The notes under the pieces were generated by a model. It searched no databases. It saw nothing but the letters and a program-made list of their open reading frames with translations, and had not been told where the DNA came from. Positions 2,904 to 13,114 of a stretch of DNA of 19,205 bases are shown here, one piece after another. Position numbers and translations under genes: made by a program. The stretch is from a virus. Numbering within the stretch: the first letter of the stretch is position 1; the number at the start of each line of letters is the position of its first letter. The stretch is taken from UHGV virus genome UHGV-0342274; one strand, written 5' to 3'.

Positions 2904-3119
2904 TTACTCTCCCCGTGCAGCCTTACGACGGTCCTCTCTGATTTTGAAATACAGGTTAGTCAGATATGTCAGCAGCCCAAACAGCAGACTCCCCAGCACG
3001 CCTATTGCCGCCCACTGAGACGGGGAAACCCTGTCCAGCAACTGCAGGAACCAGTAGCCCGTTCCCACCGCTGACGTGGTGTATGACACACCTGTTGTGA
3101 TTTTTTCCATCTGGTACAT
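2904..3119 (-). CDS. S: Class II pinholin (S21-like) with dual-start motif
   Basis: 71 aa from ATG at 3119: [71 protein letters not shown]. Two TM segments and the C-terminal [15 protein letters not shown] recalled from P21 S. Met1 and Met4 give the antiholin/holin dual start. The track ORF is extended upstream. Confidence 0.85.
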
Positions 3120-3269
3120 ACCCCGTCTCCCGTTATCCGGAAGCTGACAACAATAAAAAAAGCCACCAGTTAAGTACTGATGGCTCTGATAACTCATGCA
3201 GGCATCTCAGACGACCCACTGACACTACCGGTGAGTTTAACGATACCTTCCATTTGACTGGCTCACTTT

Positions 3270-5138
3270 TTATGATGATGCTGGTGCATTTATCTCCAGC
3301 ACCAGACTTTCTATCTCAACGCCATACGCTGCATTTTTGGTAATATCCGTCAGCGTCAGCGCATTCAGCCCCAGTGTCAGACTGTCTTTTATGACCAGGA
3401 ATGCCGGGCCAGCCACTCCATTCAGTTTCGGAGTAACCGTGGCACTGCCGGCGGTGAACACCAGCTCCAGCGTCTGCCAGTCGTTACTGTAATTCCCGAA
3501 CTCGCCCAACTTTGTGTTTCCTGCTTTCCTGTGATGCATCAGATTCAGTTTGCCGTCTGTGGTCTGGGTGAAGAACGACATCAGGAACGGGTTACCAGTC
3601 CCGGTCATCGCCACGACGTCAGGTAACGCTACATCGGTATACAGATAAATTCCCAGACCGAACTGGTTGTTGGTCAGTGCGCCTGACAGTCGAAACTTAC
3701 AGCTCAGTCTGCCACCCCGTGTCAGCAGGGAGACTGCGTCATCCACCGGATGCATCAGGGACCAAGTTTTATTGCTCTGCTTGGTGATCTTAAATACACC
3801 ACCCGACAACTGAATTCCGCCGTCCTTAATGGTCCAGCCCTGCGCAGCAGCCTCTCCGGCTGTCGGCAACAGGGAGATTGTGCGTACGGATGCATCTTCA
3901 GACGGCCCCGATGGCGTGTCGACGCCGGGCGAGGGTTTGATTTCCGGTGCCTTACCACTGATGAAGGCTGAGGTGCGCCCGGCTGCGTTCAGAATAGCGG
4001 TTGCCATACGATCCGGAATAATGCTCCTGCGCGCCCATGAACTGAAATGTGTCGGGCGGTTTGACGATACCCAATTACCATTACTACGGGATTGCGCGCC
4101 GTAATAACCTGCATCAGCAATATCCGGGTCTTCTGCCGGTAAGTTGGTGGGCGTGTTGTTGCCGTTACCGTCGGTCATGAACGGCACAAAGAAAACGTTG
4201 TCGCTCTCCCTGTTTTTGTATGCGCCGTAGACGGAGTCATACTGTGTGCCGTATGTGTTTTTCCAGTAATACGTCGTGTCGCCACAAATCCACGGTACAA
4301 CTGCAGCACTGCCGCCATGGCACTGCGCGTTAAATCCGGAAAGGTCAGTACGGAACTGCTTCAGCATGGCCGTGAACAGGTCCGGTTGCTGTGCGTAGGT
4401 GGCAGCGCTCATGTCAAATTCGCCCTGCATCCAGCACACCGCCAGCAACACATTTTTCGGGTTCTTCTGTAATGCCGCTTTGGTGCGTGCGATCAGGTCC
4501 TGATATAACGGTTTACCCACACCCCAGCGTGCCGAATCCTGGCTGGCCCCCGTGTCCGCACTGAATGTCCCCTCCGCGCCCTGGGTGAATGCCGAACCAC
4601 CACGACAGCATGGTACCAGCAGGATCCCCGCGTTATTCGGGATATACGGAAGCAGTTTTTTGGCAATATGTAAGCCCTGGCCGACACAGCCGTACTGCCC
4701 TTTGCTCAGGTCTGCCTTCGGATGATTCAGTGCGCTCATATCCTGAACATCATGCAGGCAGTGGTCTGCCGGAATGATGTCGTTAAATGCGCATGCTTTA
4801 CCACCGGGAGTCACTGTGTTGCGACGGGCCAGTTGCTTAATGCGTGGGTGGGGCGCATCGTAAGAATCCGGAAGCGGAAGCCCTTCACCGTAAGCCATGG
4901 CATTGGATTGCCCGGCCAGTACGATGACGTAGTACCACTCCGGCTCAGTTGCACCACTGACGACCACATCACCTTCTGCTGCAATCGCCTGCATCAGGGT
5001 ATAAGGGGTTATGGCCACCGGACTACCAAACGGCTGCCAGCCCTCTTTCAGTTTATGTGTCAGCTTTTCCGCAAGATCTGACGGCGACGCCGCCCTGACA
5101 ACATCATAGTGTTTAAATGCCATGGTTCTTTCCACCAT
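3270..5138 (-). CDS. nanS-p: NanS-p-like sialate O-acetylesterase (DUF1737 N-terminal domain plus SASA/SGNH-type esterase)
   Basis: 622-aa ORF. N-terminus MAFKHYDVVRAASPSDLAEKLTHKLKEGWQPFGSPV (DUF1737-like), then YVIVLAGQSNAMAYGEG (GQSN esterase motif). Sits just upstream of the holin, as in Stx phages. Start may be the ATG at 5123 (MAFKHY) rather than 5138. Confidence 0.75.
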   Translation of the reverse strand: MVERTMAFKHYDVVRAASPSDLAEKLTHKLKEGWQPFGSPVAITPYTLMQAIAAEGDVVVSGATEPEWYYVIVLAGQSNAMAYGEGLPLPDSYDAPHPRIKQLARRNTVTPGGKACAFNDIIPADHCLHDVQDMSALNHPKADLSKGQYGCVGQGLHIAKKLLPYIPNNAGILLVPCCRGGSAFTQGAEGTFSADTGASQDSARWGVGKPLYQDLIARTKAALQKNPKNVLLAVCWMQGEFDMSAATYAQQPDLFTAMLKQFRTDLSGFNAQCHGGSAAVVPWICGDTTYYWKNTYGTQYDSVYGAYKNRESDNVFFVPFMTDGNGNNTPTNLPAEDPDIADAGYYGAQSRSNGNWVSSNRPTHFSSWARRSIIPDRMATAILNAAGRTSAFISGKAPEIKPSPGVDTPSGPSEDASVRTISLLPTAGEAAAQGWTIKDGGIQLSGGVFKITKQSNKTWSLMHPVDDAVSLLTRGGRLSCKFRLSGALTNNQFGLGIYLYTDVALPDVVAMTGTGNPFLMSFFTQTTDGKLNLMHHRKAGNTKLGEFGNYSNDWQTLELVFTAGSATVTPKLNGVAGPAFLVIKDSLTLGLNALTLTDITKNAAYGVEIESLVLEINAPASS

Positions 5139-5383
5139 CTGAAAAATGATTCTTTAAAATACCTGACATGTAATACAGAAAAAACACAAAACCATACCTT
5201 AAATAAAAACCTCATCATCAAGCAGATATGCATGGATAAACTACAAGACGAGATATAAACCACCCTGCATTTAAATAAACAATAAACAACATCAGAAAAA
5301 TAATTCTGCTCTATGGTTTGCAATCAAAAATATCATTTATACTTTTCAGAACATCACTAGCAAGGCATAAACAAGGAAACTAA

Positions 5384-5719
5384 ATGAAGTGGATTGTGAT
5401 TGATACAGTTATCCAGCCATCATGCGGAATATCTTTTTCAGTCATATGGAGTAAAATAAAATTAATAATCTGGTATCAATCGGATGCTTTCTTACCTCCT
5501 GAAAGTATATTTACACTGACTCACACAGGCATCATGCTCAATAACAAAGTGCTACCTGTAACCATTTACAACGTAGTACCATTCAATAAAACATTCTGGA
5601 ATTTAATCAAAAACAGCCAGGAATGCCCTACAAATACAGATAACGTATTGAATGAATGCTTTAATAACCGTTGCACTCTGCAAATATGTCCTTATGGGCT
5701 AAAACAACAAAGTCCATAA
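5384..5719 (+). CDS. Hypothetical Cys-rich 111-aa protein in an AT-rich segment
   Basis: ATG at 5384 with AAGGAA RBS 6 nt upstream. Strongly AT-rich codon usage; several Cys in the C-terminal third ([26 protein letters not shown]). Opposite strand to the late operon. No homology recognised; could be a spurious ORF in AT-rich DNA. Confidence 0.3.
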
Positions 5720-5739
5720 GCAGTTTACTCACATCTGAC

Positions 5740-5775
5740 AAAATCAATATAAACAGCCCCTCCGGAGAGGGGCTG
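5740..5775 (-). terminator. Intrinsic terminator downstream of the tRNA cluster
   Basis: GC-rich 9-bp stem CAGCCCCTC/GAGGGGCTG with loop CGGA at 5754-5775. On the minus strand it is followed by TTTATATTGATTTTG. Confidence 0.5.
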
Positions 5776-6010
5776 GAGTGTGGCGCTATGTGCCATTGCA
5801 TGGTGCCGGGTGCCTCCCGGTGAATTCAGTACCAGCACCTGAATCCGCGATTATCCCATATACCTACTCGCTGATTGCCCCTCCGCACAGGGGGATTCAC
5901 CATGCCAGTTTCTTTTAACAAACTCCCCGCAAACCAGACAACAGTCAACCGCCTAAATTGTGAGACATTTAAAAAAAAGGCCCACAAAAGCGAGCCAGGG
6001 AAAATAAGTG

Positions 6011-6087
6011 TGGCGCGTTGTACTGGATTCGAACCAGTGACCGATTGCTTAGAAGGCAATTGCTCTGTCCGGCTGAGCTAACAACGC
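6011..6087 (-). tRNA. argO: tRNA-Arg (anticodon UCU)
   Basis: Cloverleaf built by hand: acceptor GCGTTGT/ACAACGC, D-arm GCTC...GAGC, anticodon stem ATTGC/GCAAT with loop CTTCTAA, T-arm ACTGG-TTCGAAT-CCAGT, CCA encoded. Third gene of an Ile-Arg-Arg cluster as in Stx phages. Confidence 0.8.
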
Positions 6088-6100
6088 ATGATGCAGATAA

Positions 6101-6177
6101 TGGACCGCCATCGGGGACTTGAACCCCGCGCAACCAGCTTCGAAGGCTGGCGCTCTTTCCTGATGAGCTAATGGCGG
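6101..6177 (-). tRNA. argN: tRNA-Arg (anticodon UCG as read from the loop)
   Basis: Acceptor CCGCCAT/ATGGCGG, anticodon stem CCAGC/GCTGG with loop CTTCGAA, T-arm CGGGG-TTCAAGT-CCCCG, CCA encoded. The symbol is by position in the cluster; the anticodon should be confirmed by software. Confidence 0.75.
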
Positions 6178-6184
6178 TATGTGA

Positions 6185-6260
6185 TGGTGGCCCTTGCTGG
6201 ATTTGAACCAGCGACCTGGCGATTATGAGTCGCTCGCTCTCACCACTGAGCTAAAGGGCC
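6185..6260 (-). tRNA. ileZ: tRNA-Ile2 (anticodon CAU, lysidine type; tRNA-Met alternative not excluded)
   Basis: Acceptor GGCCCTT/AAGGGCC, anticodon loop CTCATAA, T-arm GCTGG-TTCAAAT-CCAGC, CCA encoded. Very close to recalled E. coli ileX sequence. Confidence 0.8.
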
Positions 6261-6309
6261 GGGAGCAGAATAATAATGGTGCGTAATTAATTCTGCAATC
6301 TCATCCGTT

Positions 6310-7359
6310 TCAAACGATTAAATCCTGAACTTCCCTGACTGTCTGCTCAAAACGTCCGGTCTCCAGTTCAACGCCAATCGCACGACGCCCGAGCGCCAGT
6401 GCAGCTTTTACCGTTGAACCTGAGCCCATAAAAAAATCTGCAACCAGGTCTCCCGGACGACTGCTTGCGCTGATTATCTGCTGCAGCATTTCTGCCGGTT
6501 TTTCGCACGGATGTTTCCCGGGATAGAACTGCACCGGTTTATGCGTCCACACATCGGTATACGGCACCTGCACCGTCACGCCAAAATACCGCCGCAGATG
6601 TTTATATTCACTCAGCAGCTCCGCATACTGCCGGTTCAGTGAGGTATACGTATCCACCAGATGGTGGTGGAGCTTTTCCAGTTCACCACGCCGATGCTTC
6701 TCTTCTGCCACCCGGGCAAACAGCGCCTGTAATTTCAGATAATCGCTTTCATTCGGTAGCTGCCACTGACTGGCACTGAACCAGTGCGACACCATGTTTT
6801 TCTTTCCTGTGGCATCTGCAATCTGTTTTGCCGTTATCCCCAGGGCCGCGCGCGCATCACGAAAGTAAGAAATCAGCGGGGCCATCACATGCTGTTTCAG
6901 TGCACTGCCCTTCGCCGCATACCCGGCATCTTTCGGACGATACGGCCCCTGATAATGTTCCGCGAACAGAATGCGCTCTGTGGCGGGGAAATACGCCCGC
7001 AGGCTTTCCTTGTTGCATCCGTTCCAGCGTCCGGACGGCTTCGCCCAGATAATATGGTTCAGCACACTGAAGCGTTCACGCATCATGATTTCGATATCAG
7101 ATGCCAGGCGATGACCACAGAACAGGTAAAGACTTCCGGCAGGTTTCAGCACCCGCCAGAACTGCGCCAGACACTGGTCCAGCCACTTCAGGTAATCATC
7201 GTCGCCCTTCCACTGGTTATCCCAGCCCTCAGGCTTCACTTTAAAGTACGGCGGGTCCGTGACTATCAGGTCAACAGAATTTTCGGGTAACGACCGGATA
7301 AATTCCAGGCAGTCGGCGTTGATTAACTCACAACTGGATATTTTTACAGTATTAAGCAT
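6310..7359 (-). CDS. Orphan DNA N6-adenine methyltransferase (beta-class, DPPY motif)
   Basis: 349 aa. Motif IV DPPY near the N-terminus (DLIVTDPPYF) and SAM-binding motif I near the C-terminus (DFFMGSGST), the order of beta-class amino-MTases. No adjacent restriction gene in the window. Confidence 0.8.
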   Translation of the reverse strand: MLNTVKISSCELINADCLEFIRSLPENSVDLIVTDPPYFKVKPEGWDNQWKGDDDYLKWLDQCLAQFWRVLKPAGSLYLFCGHRLASDIEIMMRERFSVLNHIIWAKPSGRWNGCNKESLRAYFPATERILFAEHYQGPYRPKDAGYAAKGSALKQHVMAPLISYFRDARAALGITAKQIADATGKKNMVSHWFSASQWQLPNESDYLKLQALFARVAEEKHRRGELEKLHHHLVDTYTSLNRQYAELLSEYKHLRRYFGVTVQVPYTDVWTHKPVQFYPGKHPCEKPAEMLQQIISASSRPGDLVADFFMGSGSTVKAALALGRRAIGVELETGRFEQTVREVQDLIV

Positions 7360-7494
7360 GGATCATTAAGCCTGTCTCTGATAGGCTCATTCTGCTTTTG
7401 CGCAAAGCAGTGGGCCTGAGGTTTGCTTGTGATCCGGACGCATGAGCAGATGGCTGGTGGGTGCCCCTAACACCCACCAGCCGCCCATTTACCA

Positions 7495-7523
7495 CAAATA
7501 AAAAAGCCTTCACTGCGGAAGGC
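7495..7523 (-). terminator. Intrinsic terminator after the first late-operon ORF
   Basis: Stem GCCTTC/GAAGGC with loop ACTGCG at 7506-7523; on the minus strand followed by TTTTTTATTTG. It overlaps the stop codon of the 65-aa ORF. Confidence 0.5.
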
Positions 7524-7707
7524 GTCTGTAACAACCGAACTGATAGTCTGCCAGACCCGCCATAACCAGCTGAGTCAGTATTAACTGGCAGCGTTCGCGT
7601 GAAAGGTAAGTATTCTGCGCTATCTCCCCGACTGTCGCCGGGTCGGTAACGCTTAATTCATTAAACACCACTCTGGCGGTTTCTGTCATATCCTGCTGTT
7701 TTAGCAT
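7510..7707 (-). CDS. Hypothetical 65-aa protein, first ORF downstream of pR'/tR'
   Basis: ATG at 7707 with AAGGAA RBS 6 nt upstream. MLKQQDMTETARVVFNELSVTDPATVGEIAQNTYLSRERCQLILTQLVMAGL... suggests a small winged-helix-like fold (inference). Confidence 0.5.
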   Translation of the reverse strand: MLKQQDMTETARVVFNELSVTDPATVGEIAQNTYLSRERCQLILTQLVMAGLADYQFGCYRRLPQ

Positions 7708-7825
7708 GTCTTTTCCTTTTCCGGTTAACGTGACACACCAATAACTCTTGTCGAAAAAGCCAGCAAGCTGAAAGACAGGTATTCACCGCCACCAGCGCGT
7801 TTACTGTACTGACGCGATTTCAGTC

Positions 7826-7849
7826 ATAAAAAACCCGCCAGGCGGCGGG
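7826..7849 (-). terminator. Candidate tR' terminator of the short pR' transcript
   Basis: Stem CCCGCC/GGCGGG with loop AGGC at 7834-7849; on the minus strand followed by TTTTTTAT. About 45-65 nt downstream of the predicted pR' start. Confidence 0.55.
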
Positions 7850-7892
7850 GTGTAAAAAATCTTCTAACGTCAGGCATAAAACGCCCATCGTT

Positions 7893-7926
7893 AGAGCAAA
7901 TTTACCACAGATTCGGGAAAAATCAA
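7893..7926 (-). promoter_or_regulatory. Late promoter pR' (lambda-type) with sigma70-dependent pause element
   Basis: Minus strand reads TTGATT-16 nt-TAAATT-TGCTCT-AACGATGGG. The TAAATT...AACGATGGG arrangement matches what I recall of lambda pR' (the -10 and the pause-inducing -10-like element in the initial transcribed region). Lies directly after the Q stop. Confidence 0.55.
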
Positions 7927-7931
7927 CAACA

Positions 7932-8753
7932 CTATCGCGTTACCCTCTTTAACTGCCGCTCCGCCCATGCCTCTTCAATGTCAAACCGAACCACCAACGT
8001 ATCGTAAAAGCGTTTCACTGATTTTTTCCACGTATCAAGCGTGATAGCACTCGTCACTTTGCGTATGGCATTAAATGCCTCCGTTGATGGTAGTCTTTCA
8101 CAGCCACGACCACCACAACGCTGGCAGTCTCTGATAACAGGCATACCACGTTTTACCGACTCTTCACGATGAATGGCGACACCACGCCCACGGCAATCCT
8201 TACAGGCGGTGGAAACCTCACCCTTTCCGCCACACTCCGGACAGGCAACTTTTACCACCTCCCTGACTTTTTTCCATTCTTCCCAGTAAGACGGATACAC
8301 ACCTTTCGTACACTTTGCCCATACCGGCGGCTTACCATCCGGATACTGGACCTTGTTTGTAAAAACCTCGCTTTCAATAAATTTTTTTCCGTGACAGCAG
8401 GAGCACTGTTTTTTGCTCGCCGCGCTACGGGCATAATCTTCAAACGCATACGAAGCCATAATACGCATCACTGCCGGTTTTATTTCTGCCGGGAGTTTTC
8501 TTAACGCCGCCACGCGATCACACCGACTGAGTGCATATTCTGTCAGCAATTCTGTTGCCCGCTCTCTGTCATTCATACTAATGCCCATTTTACCAAGGAA
8601 CGCAGAAAACCCCATCTCAGCCCGATTCTGTGTCATGCCCTGCGCGGCCATCACATCAGTGATACTCAGCGCATCTTTCGACGTTGAGGCCGATGCATCA
8701 GTCAGGCCGGGGGATTTTGGGGAGTAGTATTTCGGTAAATCTTCCAGTTTCAT
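7932..8753 (-). CDS. Q: Late-gene antiterminator Q (lambda Q family, enlarged zinc-binding region)
   Basis: 273 aa. Shares with recalled lambda Q the blocks SPKSP, TDVMAAQGM, EDYARSAA and the C-terminal YDTLVV...RVTR. Multiple Cys pairs (CSCCHG, CPECGG, CKDCRG, CQRCGG) form an expanded zinc-finger segment. Start overlaps the rusA stop (ATGA). Confidence 0.85.
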   Translation of the reverse strand: MKLEDLPKYYSPKSPGLTDASASTSKDALSITDVMAAQGMTQNRAEMGFSAFLGKMGISMNDRERATELLTEYALSRCDRVAALRKLPAEIKPAVMRIMASYAFEDYARSAASKKQCSCCHGKKFIESEVFTNKVQYPDGKPPVWAKCTKGVYPSYWEEWKKVREVVKVACPECGGKGEVSTACKDCRGRGVAIHREESVKRGMPVIRDCQRCGGRGCERLPSTEAFNAIRKVTSAITLDTWKKSVKRFYDTLVVRFDIEEAWAERQLKRVTR

Positions 8754-12747: not shown

Positions 12748-12903
12748 TTACTCCTCAGGTTCGTAAGCTGTGAAGACAGCGACCTCCGTCTGGCCGGTTC
12801 GGATTCGTACCTCGCAGAGGTCTTTCCTCGTTACCAGTGCCGTCACAATGACGGTTAAACAGATGACGATCAGGGCGATTAGCATCGCCTTTTGCTGCTT
12901 CAT
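12748..12903 (-). CDS. hokD: Hok/Gef-family type I toxin (HokD/RelF-like)
   Basis: 51 aa from ATG at 12903: MKQQKAMLIALIVICLTVIVTALVTRKDLCEVRIRTGQTEVAVFTAYEPEE, matching HokD as I recall it. The track ORF extends in frame 19 codons upstream (MLYTRRLASYVPKGKEKQA). Confidence 0.85.
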   Translation of the reverse strand: MKQQKAMLIALIVICLTVIVTALVTRKDLCEVRIRTGQTEVAVFTAYEPEE

Positions 12904-13114
12904 AGCCTGCTTCTCCTTGCCTTTCGGCACGTAAGAGGCTAACCTACGTGTGTAGAGCATAGATATGGCCTCAGATTAATGTTAAGCGTCTTGCCGGACG
13001 CGTAATGTTAACTGGGGCTTTTCTCTATCTGCCTTTTGGTGTTCATGCCTGAGACAGATAGCCTCAAGCACCCGCTGCAATTCTACTTAACTCTCCTTTT
13101 CCCGCAAACCGTTT

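What the first reader, a model, noticed from the sequence alone, without database searches (positions are those of the whole stretch)
5139..5780. AT-rich segment with a Cys-rich 111-aa ORF at the position where Stx phages carry stx
Gene order here (Q, tRNA cluster, segment, NanS-p-like esterase, holin) places this roughly 600-bp AT-rich stretch where stx sits in Stx phages. It encodes, on the strand opposite the late operon, a 111-aa ORF with a good AAGGAA RBS and a Cys-rich C-terminus. Low GC, divergent orientation and placement after rare-codon tRNAs fit a horizontally acquired moron at a known cargo hotspot; the protein has no obvious signal peptide and no recognisable family.
Basis: partly seen in the sequence, partly recalled or inferred. 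Interest (0 to 1): 0.55.

Follow-up and report, generated by a model that had tools for sequence, protein, structure and literature searches.

The report
Known prophage gene iraL, beside stx slot
The 111-aa ORF is iraL, an already characterised prophage gene whose protein blocks RssB and so stabilises the stress sigma factor RpoS; it sits next to, not in, the site where Stx phages carry the toxin genes.

Summary
Window 5139-5780 is AT-rich (GC 0.34 against 0.48 for the window). It carries a 111-aa ORF (5384..5719, +) with an AAGGAA RBS and four C-terminal Cys, antisense to the late operon.

The claim of "no recognisable family" is wrong. The protein matches NCBIfam "anti-adapter protein IraM" (162 bits, cut-off 121). 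It is 62% identical to K-12 IraM and 100% identical to IraL of UPEC CFT073. IraL is an experimentally characterised RssB anti-adaptor that stabilises sigma-S in log phase (PMC4045071). The 5'-RACE-mapped iraL mRNA start aligns to window 5351. At least 80% of the segment 5100-5850 occurs in 1431 of 5426 complete E. coli genomes, where PGAP annotates the gene as IraM.

The position claim is only roughly right. In Stx phages stxAB lies between the tRNA cluster and an STnc100 sRNA element, a junction that is empty in the window (5964-5969). The iraL cassette (5125-5754) fills the next slot, between the STnc100 terminator and nanS-p. Some Stx2 prophages carry stx2AB and an iraL-like gene together.

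Verdict: a real moron that is already known. Two loose ends remain. The four-Cys tail is the most conserved part of the family and is unstudied. This copy also has a private A>G change in the likely -35.

The parts
5384..5719 (+). iraL coding sequence (111 aa), an RssB anti-adaptor of the IraM/IraL family
   Evidence: ORF. NCBIfam NF007393, 162 bits against a cut-off of 121. 100% identical to CFT073 C_RS06710/c1429 = IraL. 62% identical to K-12 IraM. PDB 8twd IraM, E 9e-32.
5373..5378 (+). Shine-Dalgarno AAGGAA, 5 nt upstream of the ATG
   Evidence: Read directly from the sequence. It lies inside the published iraL 5' UTR sequence.
5315..5351 (+). iraL sigma-70 promoter region. The TSS equivalent is at 5351. 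The likely -10 is TATACT at 5338-5343 (or TACTTT at 5340-5345). The likely -35 is TTTGCA at 5317-5322, which reads TTTACA in CFT073 and in all other alleles sampled except phage 640R1 (TTTATA).
   Evidence: The 5'-RACE mRNA start ACATCACCAGCAAGGCATAAACAAGGAAACCA (PMC4045071) aligns to window 5351-5382 with 2 mismatches. The hexamer assignment is my inference.
5125..5754 (.). iraL cassette: 630 bp, GC 0.327. It replaces about 231 bp of unrelated spacer found in Stx phages between nanS-p and the STnc100 terminator.
   Evidence: blastn break-points against Stx2a and Stx1 phages; alignment.
5754..5775 (-). G+C-rich hairpin followed by a T run on the - strand. It is the intrinsic terminator of STnc100. 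iraL transcription converges on it, but there is no T run on the + strand.
   Evidence: Terminator scan, RNA fold, Rfam alignment end.
5745..5934 (-). STnc100-family sRNA element (neighbour of iraL, not part of it)
   Evidence: Rfam RF02076, 132.3 bits against a gathering score of 47, full-length match. A homologous element lies directly downstream of stxB in Stx1 and Stx2 phages (PMC12370729).
5964..5969 (.). Empty stx slot: the junction where Stx2 prophages carry stx2AB (a 1338-bp insert in L010)
   Evidence: Window 3990-5963 is collinear with L010 1776-3817, and window 5970-8348 with L010 5156-7536. The same break is seen against Stx2a phage L004.
6011..6260 (-). tRNA cluster Met(CAT)/Arg(TCG)/Arg(TCT), upstream of the cargo slots in late-operon sense
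   Evidence: ARAGORN, Rfam.
3270..5138 (-). NanS-p-like sialate O-acetylesterase gene, next gene of the late operon. The conserved start MAFKHY is at 5123.
   Evidence: Pfam DUF1737 + SASA + DUF6645. Homology with Stx phages ends at 5124.

Best explanation
The ORF is iraL, a prophage-borne moron encoding a small anti-adaptor protein.

Shown experimentally for the identical protein in CFT073:
- IraL binds the N-terminal receiver domain of the adaptor RssB.
- This stops RssB from handing sigma-S (RpoS) to the ClpXP protease.
- RpoS is therefore stabilised and accumulates during exponential growth.

Arrangement here: the gene is transcribed from its own sigma-70 promoter in the lysogen. It runs antisense to the Q-dependent late operon and converges on the hairpin that terminates the neighbouring STnc100 sRNA.

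Inferred, not shown:
- On prophage induction, Q-modified RNA polymerase would read through that terminator and run antisense across iraL to reach nanS-p and the lysis genes. That would make iraL a lysogeny-phase gene.
- This particular copy has an A>G change in the likely -35 hexamer, so its expression level is uncertain.
For: Identity:
- NCBIfam "anti-adapter protein IraM", 162 bits against a cut-off of 121, full length.
- 111/111 identical to the CFT073 protein, in the same Q-tRNA-...-DUF1737-holin context in the potB prophage. That gene is iraL/c1429 of PMC4045071 and PMC12890032.
- 62% identity to K-12 IraM, close to the 58.9% published for IraL against IraM.

Fold:
- The PDB IraM-RssB structure 8twd matches at E 9e-32 by sequence.
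- It is also the top Foldseek hit of the AF2 model (E 5.5e-7), followed by PmrD 4hn7, as described for IraM.
- 10 of the 14 IraM residues that contact RssB are identical. The other four are conservative changes: T13S, L75I, H63N, I64V (residues).

Function (literature):
- Deleting iraL lowers the sigma-S half-life from about 5 to about 2.5 min in log phase.
- A plasmid carrying iraL raises sigma-S in K-12.
- A two-hybrid assay shows binding to the RssB N-terminal domain.

Promoter: the RACE-mapped 5' end aligns to 5351.

Prevalence: at least 80% of 5100-5850 occurs in 1431 of 5426 complete genomes, with the gene annotated IraM. The exact protein is UniProt IRAM_ECO27.
Against: - Nothing contradicts the identity.
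- Expression of this copy is untested. The -35 candidate reads TTTGCA rather than TTTACA, and there is a second private SNP at 5358. No exact 60-nt promoter match exists in 5426 complete genomes.
- The consensus promoter scan did not pick up the RACE-mapped promoter at all.
- The antisense read-through model on induction is inference only.
- The local Pfam-A scan found no family, although precomputed annotations list PF11183 PmrD.
Confidence: 0.95

Rival explanations
1. It is a functional equivalent of K-12 IraM: a PhoP-activated, Mg2+-starvation-induced anti-adaptor that binds both RssB domains, rather than the log-phase IraL type.
For: Databases name it IraM. A PhoP-box-like motif TGTTTATTGTTTATTTA lies at 5272-5288 (-), 63-79 bp upstream of the TSS, with 1 mismatch.
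Against: The protein is 100% IraL and only 62% IraM. The upstream regions of iraL and K-12 iraM do not align. The PhoP-like motif is not significant: 60 of 200 shuffles give at least one such hit, and the region is AT-rich. The literature reports different conditions and a different RssB interaction pattern for IraL.
Confidence: 0.04
2. This copy is an intact but poorly expressed allele, a decaying moron, because of the A>G substitution in the probable -35 hexamer.
For: Position 5320 is G here. It is A in CFT073, in three other sampled genomes and in a phage. No genome among 5426 has the exact promoter allele. The authors of PMC4045071 raised the same doubt for a -35 point mutant (JJ1886 iraL2).
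Against: The coding sequence is intact and identical to the functional protein. TTTGCA still matches TTGACA at 4 of 6 positions. The hexamer assignment is my inference, because the published figure is not available.
Confidence: 0.15
3. It is a toxin or secreted host-interaction factor that occupies the stx locus, analogous to Stx.
For: Only the neighbourhood: the Q-tRNA-cargo-nanS-p-holin order.
Against: There is no signal peptide. The protein belongs to the family of a cytoplasmic RssB binder. It does not occupy the stx slot, and it co-occurs with stx2AB in L010-L012.
Confidence: 0.005
4. The ORF is spurious and the segment is a non-coding spacer or an sRNA locus.
For: STnc100 overlaps the last 36 bp of the segment.
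Against: The protein family is conserved down to about 24% identity with invariant residues. There is experimental genetics on the identical protein. No Rfam hit lies inside 5139-5744.
Confidence: 0.005

Closest known systems
IraL (c1429 / C_RS06710) of uropathogenic E. coli CFT073 (Hryckowian et al. 2014, PMC4045071)
   Same: The protein is 111/111 identical. The surrounding 1072 bp are 97.9% identical. The orientation and neighbours are the same: Q, tRNAs, STnc100 region, DUF1737/esterase gene, holin.
   Different: CFT073 has an IS200 and about 640 bp of extra DNA (DUF3927 ORF) between the tRNAs and STnc100, and its nanS-p is truncated. The window differs in the promoter and 5' UTR at 5320, 5323, 5350, 5358 and 5381.
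IraM (YcgW, b1160) of E. coli K-12, beside the e14 prophage
   Same: Same family, with 62% identity over 107 aa. 10 of 14 RssB-contact residues and all four tail cysteines are shared. The fold matches PDB 8twd.
   Different: The promoter region is unrelated. IraM is induced by Mg2+ starvation and contacts both RssB domains, whereas IraL acts in log phase and bound only the N-terminal domain in two-hybrid assays. IraL has 4 extra C-terminal residues.
RssC of Salmonella and the wider IraM-like family in Enterobacterales
   Same: Small proteins of about 110 aa with a beta-barrel plus a helix and a C-x10-C-x4-C-x4-C tail. 71 representatives at E<=1e-3.
   Different: Identity to the window protein is 24-50%. 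Their genomic contexts were not examined, except for P0038 (no informative neighbours).
PmrD (PDB 4hn7, 2jso), connector protein of the PhoP-PmrA systems
   Same: Same unusual beta-barrel fold (Foldseek rank 2-3; noted in PMC10844676). Both are small proteins that bind a response-regulator receiver domain.
   Different: Only 15% identity, no Cys-rich tail, and a different target (PmrA rather than RssB). It is not a member of the same family by sequence.
stx1/stx2 morons of Stx-converting phages
   Same: Both are cargo genes in the same Q-to-nanS-p interval of the same phage backbone.
   Different: The slot differs: stx sits between the tRNAs and STnc100, iraL between STnc100 and nanS-p. The orientation differs: stx is co-oriented with the late operon and Q-dependent, iraL is antisense with its own promoter. 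The two can coexist.

Membership tests
IraM/IraL/RssC RssB anti-adaptor family | Sequence match to the curated family model above its cut-off | tested here: met
   NCBIfam NF007393, 162 bits against a cut-off of 121, residues 1-110 of 111.
IraM/IraL/RssC RssB anti-adaptor family | IraM fold: antiparallel beta-barrel with a beta-hairpin and one alpha-helix | tested here: met
   AF2 model with pLDDT 85.5: strands 2-66 and helix 69-77. In a Foldseek search with the first, shallower AF2 model (mean pLDDT 63.6), the best hit is 8twd_A (IraM), followed by PmrD.
IraM/IraL/RssC RssB anti-adaptor family | Conservation of the residues that contact RssB in the IraM-RssB crystal structure | tested here: met
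   10 of 14 are identical and 4 are conservative changes (residue list from PMC10844676).
IraM/IraL/RssC RssB anti-adaptor family | Binds RssB and stabilises RpoS | not testable with these tools
   Shown experimentally for the 100%-identical CFT073 protein (PMC4045071). Not tested for this locus or strain.
IraL subtype (as opposed to IraM) | >=95% identity to CFT073 iraL over the coding region, the criterion used in PMC4045071 | tested here: met
   The protein is 100% identical. The coding DNA differs at 1 position.
IraL subtype (as opposed to IraM) | Conserved iraL promoter and regulatory region (>=96% identity to CFT073 from -100 to the TSS) | tested here: met
   3 substitutions in the 100 bp upstream of the TSS (5320, 5323, 5350). 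One of them falls in the probable -35.
Phage moron (independently transcribed lysogenic-conversion gene) | Own promoter and terminator, atypical composition, dispensable insertion relative to related phages | tested here: met
   The TSS is mapped in CFT073 and conserved here. GC is 0.33 against 0.48. The cassette is absent from Stx1 and Stx2a phages that share both flanks. The terminator on the + strand is only a hairpin without a T run.
Cargo at the stx insertion site of Stx phages | Occupies the same junction as stxAB (between the tRNA cluster / pR' region and the STnc100 element) | tested here: not met
   The stx junction corresponds to window 5964-5969. iraL lies at 5384-5719, beyond STnc100. 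Both slots are filled in L010-L012.

The most novel reading that the evidence does not exclude

- C81, C92, C97 and C102 (motif C-P-x9-C-x4-C-x4-C-P-Y-G) are the most conserved residues of the whole family, down to about 24% identity.
- With a deeper alignment, AF2 raises the tail from pLDDT below 50 to 63-74.
- The only crystal structure removed the tail. The authors reported that full-length IraM was often proteolysed during purification, and called the tail less conserved and flexible.

The tail could be a Zn/metal-binding or redox-sensitive knuckle that controls the stability or activity of IraM/IraL. That would give RpoS stabilisation a post-translational input such as oxidative stress or metal status.
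Probability: 0.3. Interest if true: 0.4.

Novelty: already known. Interest (0 to 1): 0.1.

Why it matters
As it stands this is a correct re-discovery of a characterised gene. IraL raises RpoS levels in growing cells. It is enriched in uropathogenic E. coli and Shigella, so the prophage rewires the host's general stress response.

The modest added value here has three parts:
- A base-level map showing two separate cargo slots flanking the STnc100 element in this phage backbone: stx on one side and iraL on the other, sometimes both filled.
- The observation that the unstudied four-Cys tail is the best-conserved part of the family.
- A private -35 variant in this copy.

Tried and rejected
- Pfam-A scans of the ORF at E<=0.01 and E<=10 gave nothing. 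The family was recognised only by NCBIfam, PHROGs (phrog_4407, unknown function) and PDB sequence search.
- The consensus promoter scan missed the RACE-mapped iraL promoter and proposed two other sites (5276-5304, 5435-5462). I do not rely on it.
- PhoP-box search: one 1-mismatch hit upstream of iraL, but it is not above chance.
- The Stx2a phage record LC645409 has no annotation. I used ORF calls, VT1-Sakai and blastn instead.
- The first AF2 run with 15 close homologues gave a poor model (pLDDT 63.6). The run with 47 sequences succeeded.
- A whole-window search found no complete genome covering more than 81% of the window, so the source strain was not identified.
- The RNA fold of the STnc100 region is not distinguishable from shuffles (z = -1.55). 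The Rfam covariance match is what identifies it.
- Context of a distant homologue (P0038) was uninformative.

Full report
**1. Observation**

The segment is as described. GC falls to 0.29-0.35 across 5139-5780, against 0.48 for the window. A 111-aa ATG ORF lies at 5384..5719 on the + strand. AAGGAA sits at 5373-5378, five bases before the start codon. The protein has Cys at 14, 81, 92, 97 and 102.

All neighbours are on the - strand:
- an antiterminator Q (7932..8753, PF03589)
- a 65-aa ORF
- a DNA methylase (6310..7359)
- tRNA-Met(CAT), Arg(TCG) and Arg(TCT) (6011-6260)
- a DUF1737/SASA/DUF6645 NanS-p-like esterase (3270..5138)
- a P21-type holin (2904..3197)

**2. What it is**

- Phage records annotate the ORF as "anti-adapter protein". 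PGAP annotates it "anti-adapter protein IraM" in E. coli genomes.
- NCBIfam NF007393 (IraM) scores 162 bits against a cut-off of 121, over residues 1-110.
- Identity to K-12 IraM (b1160) is 62%.
- The PDB chain 8twd_A (IraM 1-78 bound to RssB) matches at E 9e-32.
- The exact sequence is UniProt IRAM_ECO27 and is seen on at least 1000 contigs.

The literature distinguishes IraM from a paralogue, IraL, of uropathogenic strain CFT073. IraL is 58.9% identical to IraM and lies on the potB island (PMC4045071). I fetched that region. The CFT073 gene (C_RS06710; c1429 according to PMC12890032) encodes a protein 111/111 identical to the window ORF. It sits in the same place and orientation, between a Q-tRNA block and a DUF1737 fragment followed by a holin. 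The window ORF is therefore iraL.

**3. How it works**

Shown experimentally for the identical protein:
- Deleting iraL halves the log-phase half-life of sigma-S in CFT073, from about 5 to about 2.5 min.
- iraL on a plasmid under its own promoter raises log-phase sigma-S in K-12.

For the paralogue IraM, the crystal structure shows the anti-adaptor occluding the alpha4-beta5-alpha5 face of the RssB receiver domain and remodelling the interdomain linker. Sigma-S then cannot be delivered to ClpXP (PMC10844676). Of the 14 IraM residues listed there as contacting RssB, 10 are identical in the window protein and 4 are conservative changes.

Two AF2 models were built. The Foldseek search used the first, shallower one (mean pLDDT 63.6). 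It retrieves 8twd_A first and PmrD (4hn7, 2jso) next, as reported for IraM. The second model, from a 47-sequence alignment, has mean pLDDT 85.5 and shows strands 2-66 and a helix at 69-77.

Regulation:
- The 5'-RACE-mapped mRNA start (ACATCACCAGCAAGGCATAAACAAGGAAACCA) aligns to window 5351-5382 with two mismatches.
- TATACT lies at 5338-5343 and TTTGCA at 5317-5322. The hexamer assignment is my inference.
- The iraL and K-12 iraM upstream regions are unalignable, which fits their different regulation.
- iraL mRNA rises 1.6 log2 on a shift to 37 C (PMC12890032). IraL is also increased in a fur mutant (PMC7157518).

Inferred only: in the lysogen iraL is expressed from its own promoter. After induction, Q-modified polymerase would read through the STnc100 terminator and cross iraL antisense to reach nanS-p and the lysis genes.

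**4. Position relative to stx**

Rfam finds a full-length STnc100 sRNA element at 5934..5745 on the - strand (132 bits against a gathering score of 47). It ends in the hairpin at 5754-5775 plus a T run.

blastn against an Stx2a phage gives three collinear blocks:
- the nanS-p 5' end (window 5016-5124)
- STnc100 (window 5755-5967)
- the tRNA cluster (window 5970-6299)

stx2B and stx2A lie between the last two blocks. In VT1-Sakai the STnc100 homologue likewise lies just downstream of stx1B. The literature places STnc100 75 nt downstream of the stx2 operon (PMC12370729).

The stx slot in this window is therefore the empty junction at 5964-5969. The iraL cassette (5125-5754, 630 bp, GC 0.327) occupies the next slot. 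It replaces about 231 bp of unrelated spacer between the STnc100 terminator and nanS-p.

The decisive evidence is a 76%-identical IraL-like protein, P0019. It is encoded in prophages L010-L012 with this order: Q, 65-aa ORF, methylase, three tRNAs, stx2A, stx2B, STnc100, the iraL-like gene on the opposite strand, nanS-p and holin. The stx2A product is 319 aa and its best PDB match is Stx2k subunit A at E 8.9e-185. The stx2B product is 87 aa, and STnc100 scores 136 bits.

The window is collinear with L010 on both sides of a 1338-bp stx2AB insert located exactly at 5963|5970. The two cargoes are neighbours, not alternatives.

**5. Prevalence and alleles**

At least 80% of 5100-5850 occurs in 1431 of 5426 complete E. 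coli genomes. A further 1338 or so genomes carry only the STnc100 end.

A 60-nt promoter probe finds iraL promoters in 1446 genomes, but none is identical. Alignment of sampled alleles shows that the window is alone in having G at 5320 (TTTACA->TTTGCA) and T at 5358. The authors of the IraL paper had already questioned expression of a -35 point-mutant copy in JJ1886. Expression of this copy is likewise uncertain.

**6. The Cys-rich tail**

Across 32 family representatives down to about 24% identity, the invariant columns are M1, W72, C81, C97 and C102. C92, P82 and P103 are nearly invariant. In 47 sequences, C81 and C97 are invariant, and C92 and C102 are conserved in at least 90%.

The structural paper removed residues 79-107 because full-length IraM was often proteolysed during purification. 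It described the tail as less conserved and flexible. With a 15-sequence alignment, AF2 gave the tail a pLDDT below 50. With 47 sequences it gave 63-74.

A search of the held papers did not turn up any study of these cysteines. This is the only part of the finding that is not already explained. A metal- or redox-dependent role is possible but untested.

**7. Verdict**

The family is recognisable, the mechanism is published, and the gene is routinely annotated. The stx analogy holds only at the level of the interval, not the insertion site. Novelty: already known. Interest: low.

Noticed in passing
window 5745-5934 (- strand): A full-length STnc100-family sRNA element (Rfam RF02076, 132 bits) lies between the tRNA cluster and iraL. 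The homologous element sits directly downstream of stxB in Stx1 and Stx2 phages, so it separates two distinct cargo slots.
   Followed up: yes
window 5964-5969: Empty stx insertion junction. Stx2 prophage L010 is collinear with the window on both sides of a 1338-bp stx2AB insert placed exactly here.
   Followed up: yes
L010 3206-5105, L011 3173-5072 (both from GCA_039832115.1), L012 1158-3057: Prophages that carry stx2AB (stx2A's best PDB match is Stx2k subunit A) together with a 76%-identical iraL-like gene. One assembly holds two such prophages on different contigs.
   Followed up: partly
window 5320 and 5358: Two substitutions private to this copy, one in the iraL promoter and one in the 5' UTR. 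5320 A>G changes the probable -35 from TTTACA to TTTGCA. No exact 60-nt match exists in 5426 complete E. coli genomes.
   Followed up: partly
window 5624-5701 (IraL residues 81-106): The four tail cysteines (C81, C92, C97, C102) and the adjacent Pro residues are the most conserved positions of the whole IraM/IraL family. The published crystal structure nevertheless omitted the tail as less conserved and flexible.
   Followed up: partly
window 5272-5288 (- strand): PhoP-box-like direct repeat TGTTTATTGTTTATTTA upstream of the iraL promoter, the only hit with at most 1 mismatch in the window. It is not above chance (60 of 200 shuffles).
   Followed up: yes
window 12898-13073 (- strand): sok antitoxin RNA (Rfam RF01794, 117 bits), implying a hok/sok-type type I toxin-antitoxin locus in the early region of the prophage.
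   Followed up: no
window 6185-6260 (- strand): ARAGORN calls this tRNA-Met(CAT). In CFT073 the first tRNA of the homologous cluster (about 94% identical region) is annotated tRNA-Ile by PGAP. This suggests an ileZ-like lysidine-modified tRNA-Ile2, as in Stx phages.
   Followed up: no
window 5979-5996 (- strand) and 7506-7523, 7834-7849, 7882-7898 (- strand): Terminator-like hairpins with T runs, one just after the last tRNA and three between Q and the methylase. The latter are candidates for the pR'/tR' region, but no consensus promoter was found there.
   Followed up: no
window 5121-5138: The longest nanS-p ORF starts at 5138 (MVERT...), but the conserved start (MAFKHY) is at 5123. Homology to Stx phages stops at 5124, so the GGAGG ribosome-binding site seen in Stx phages is replaced by iraL-cassette sequence.
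   Followed up: partly
window 5384-5719: The local Pfam-A scan returns no family even at E<=10. Precomputed annotations for the same protein cluster list PF11183 (PmrD). This is a discrepancy between Pfam versions or thresholds.
   Followed up: no
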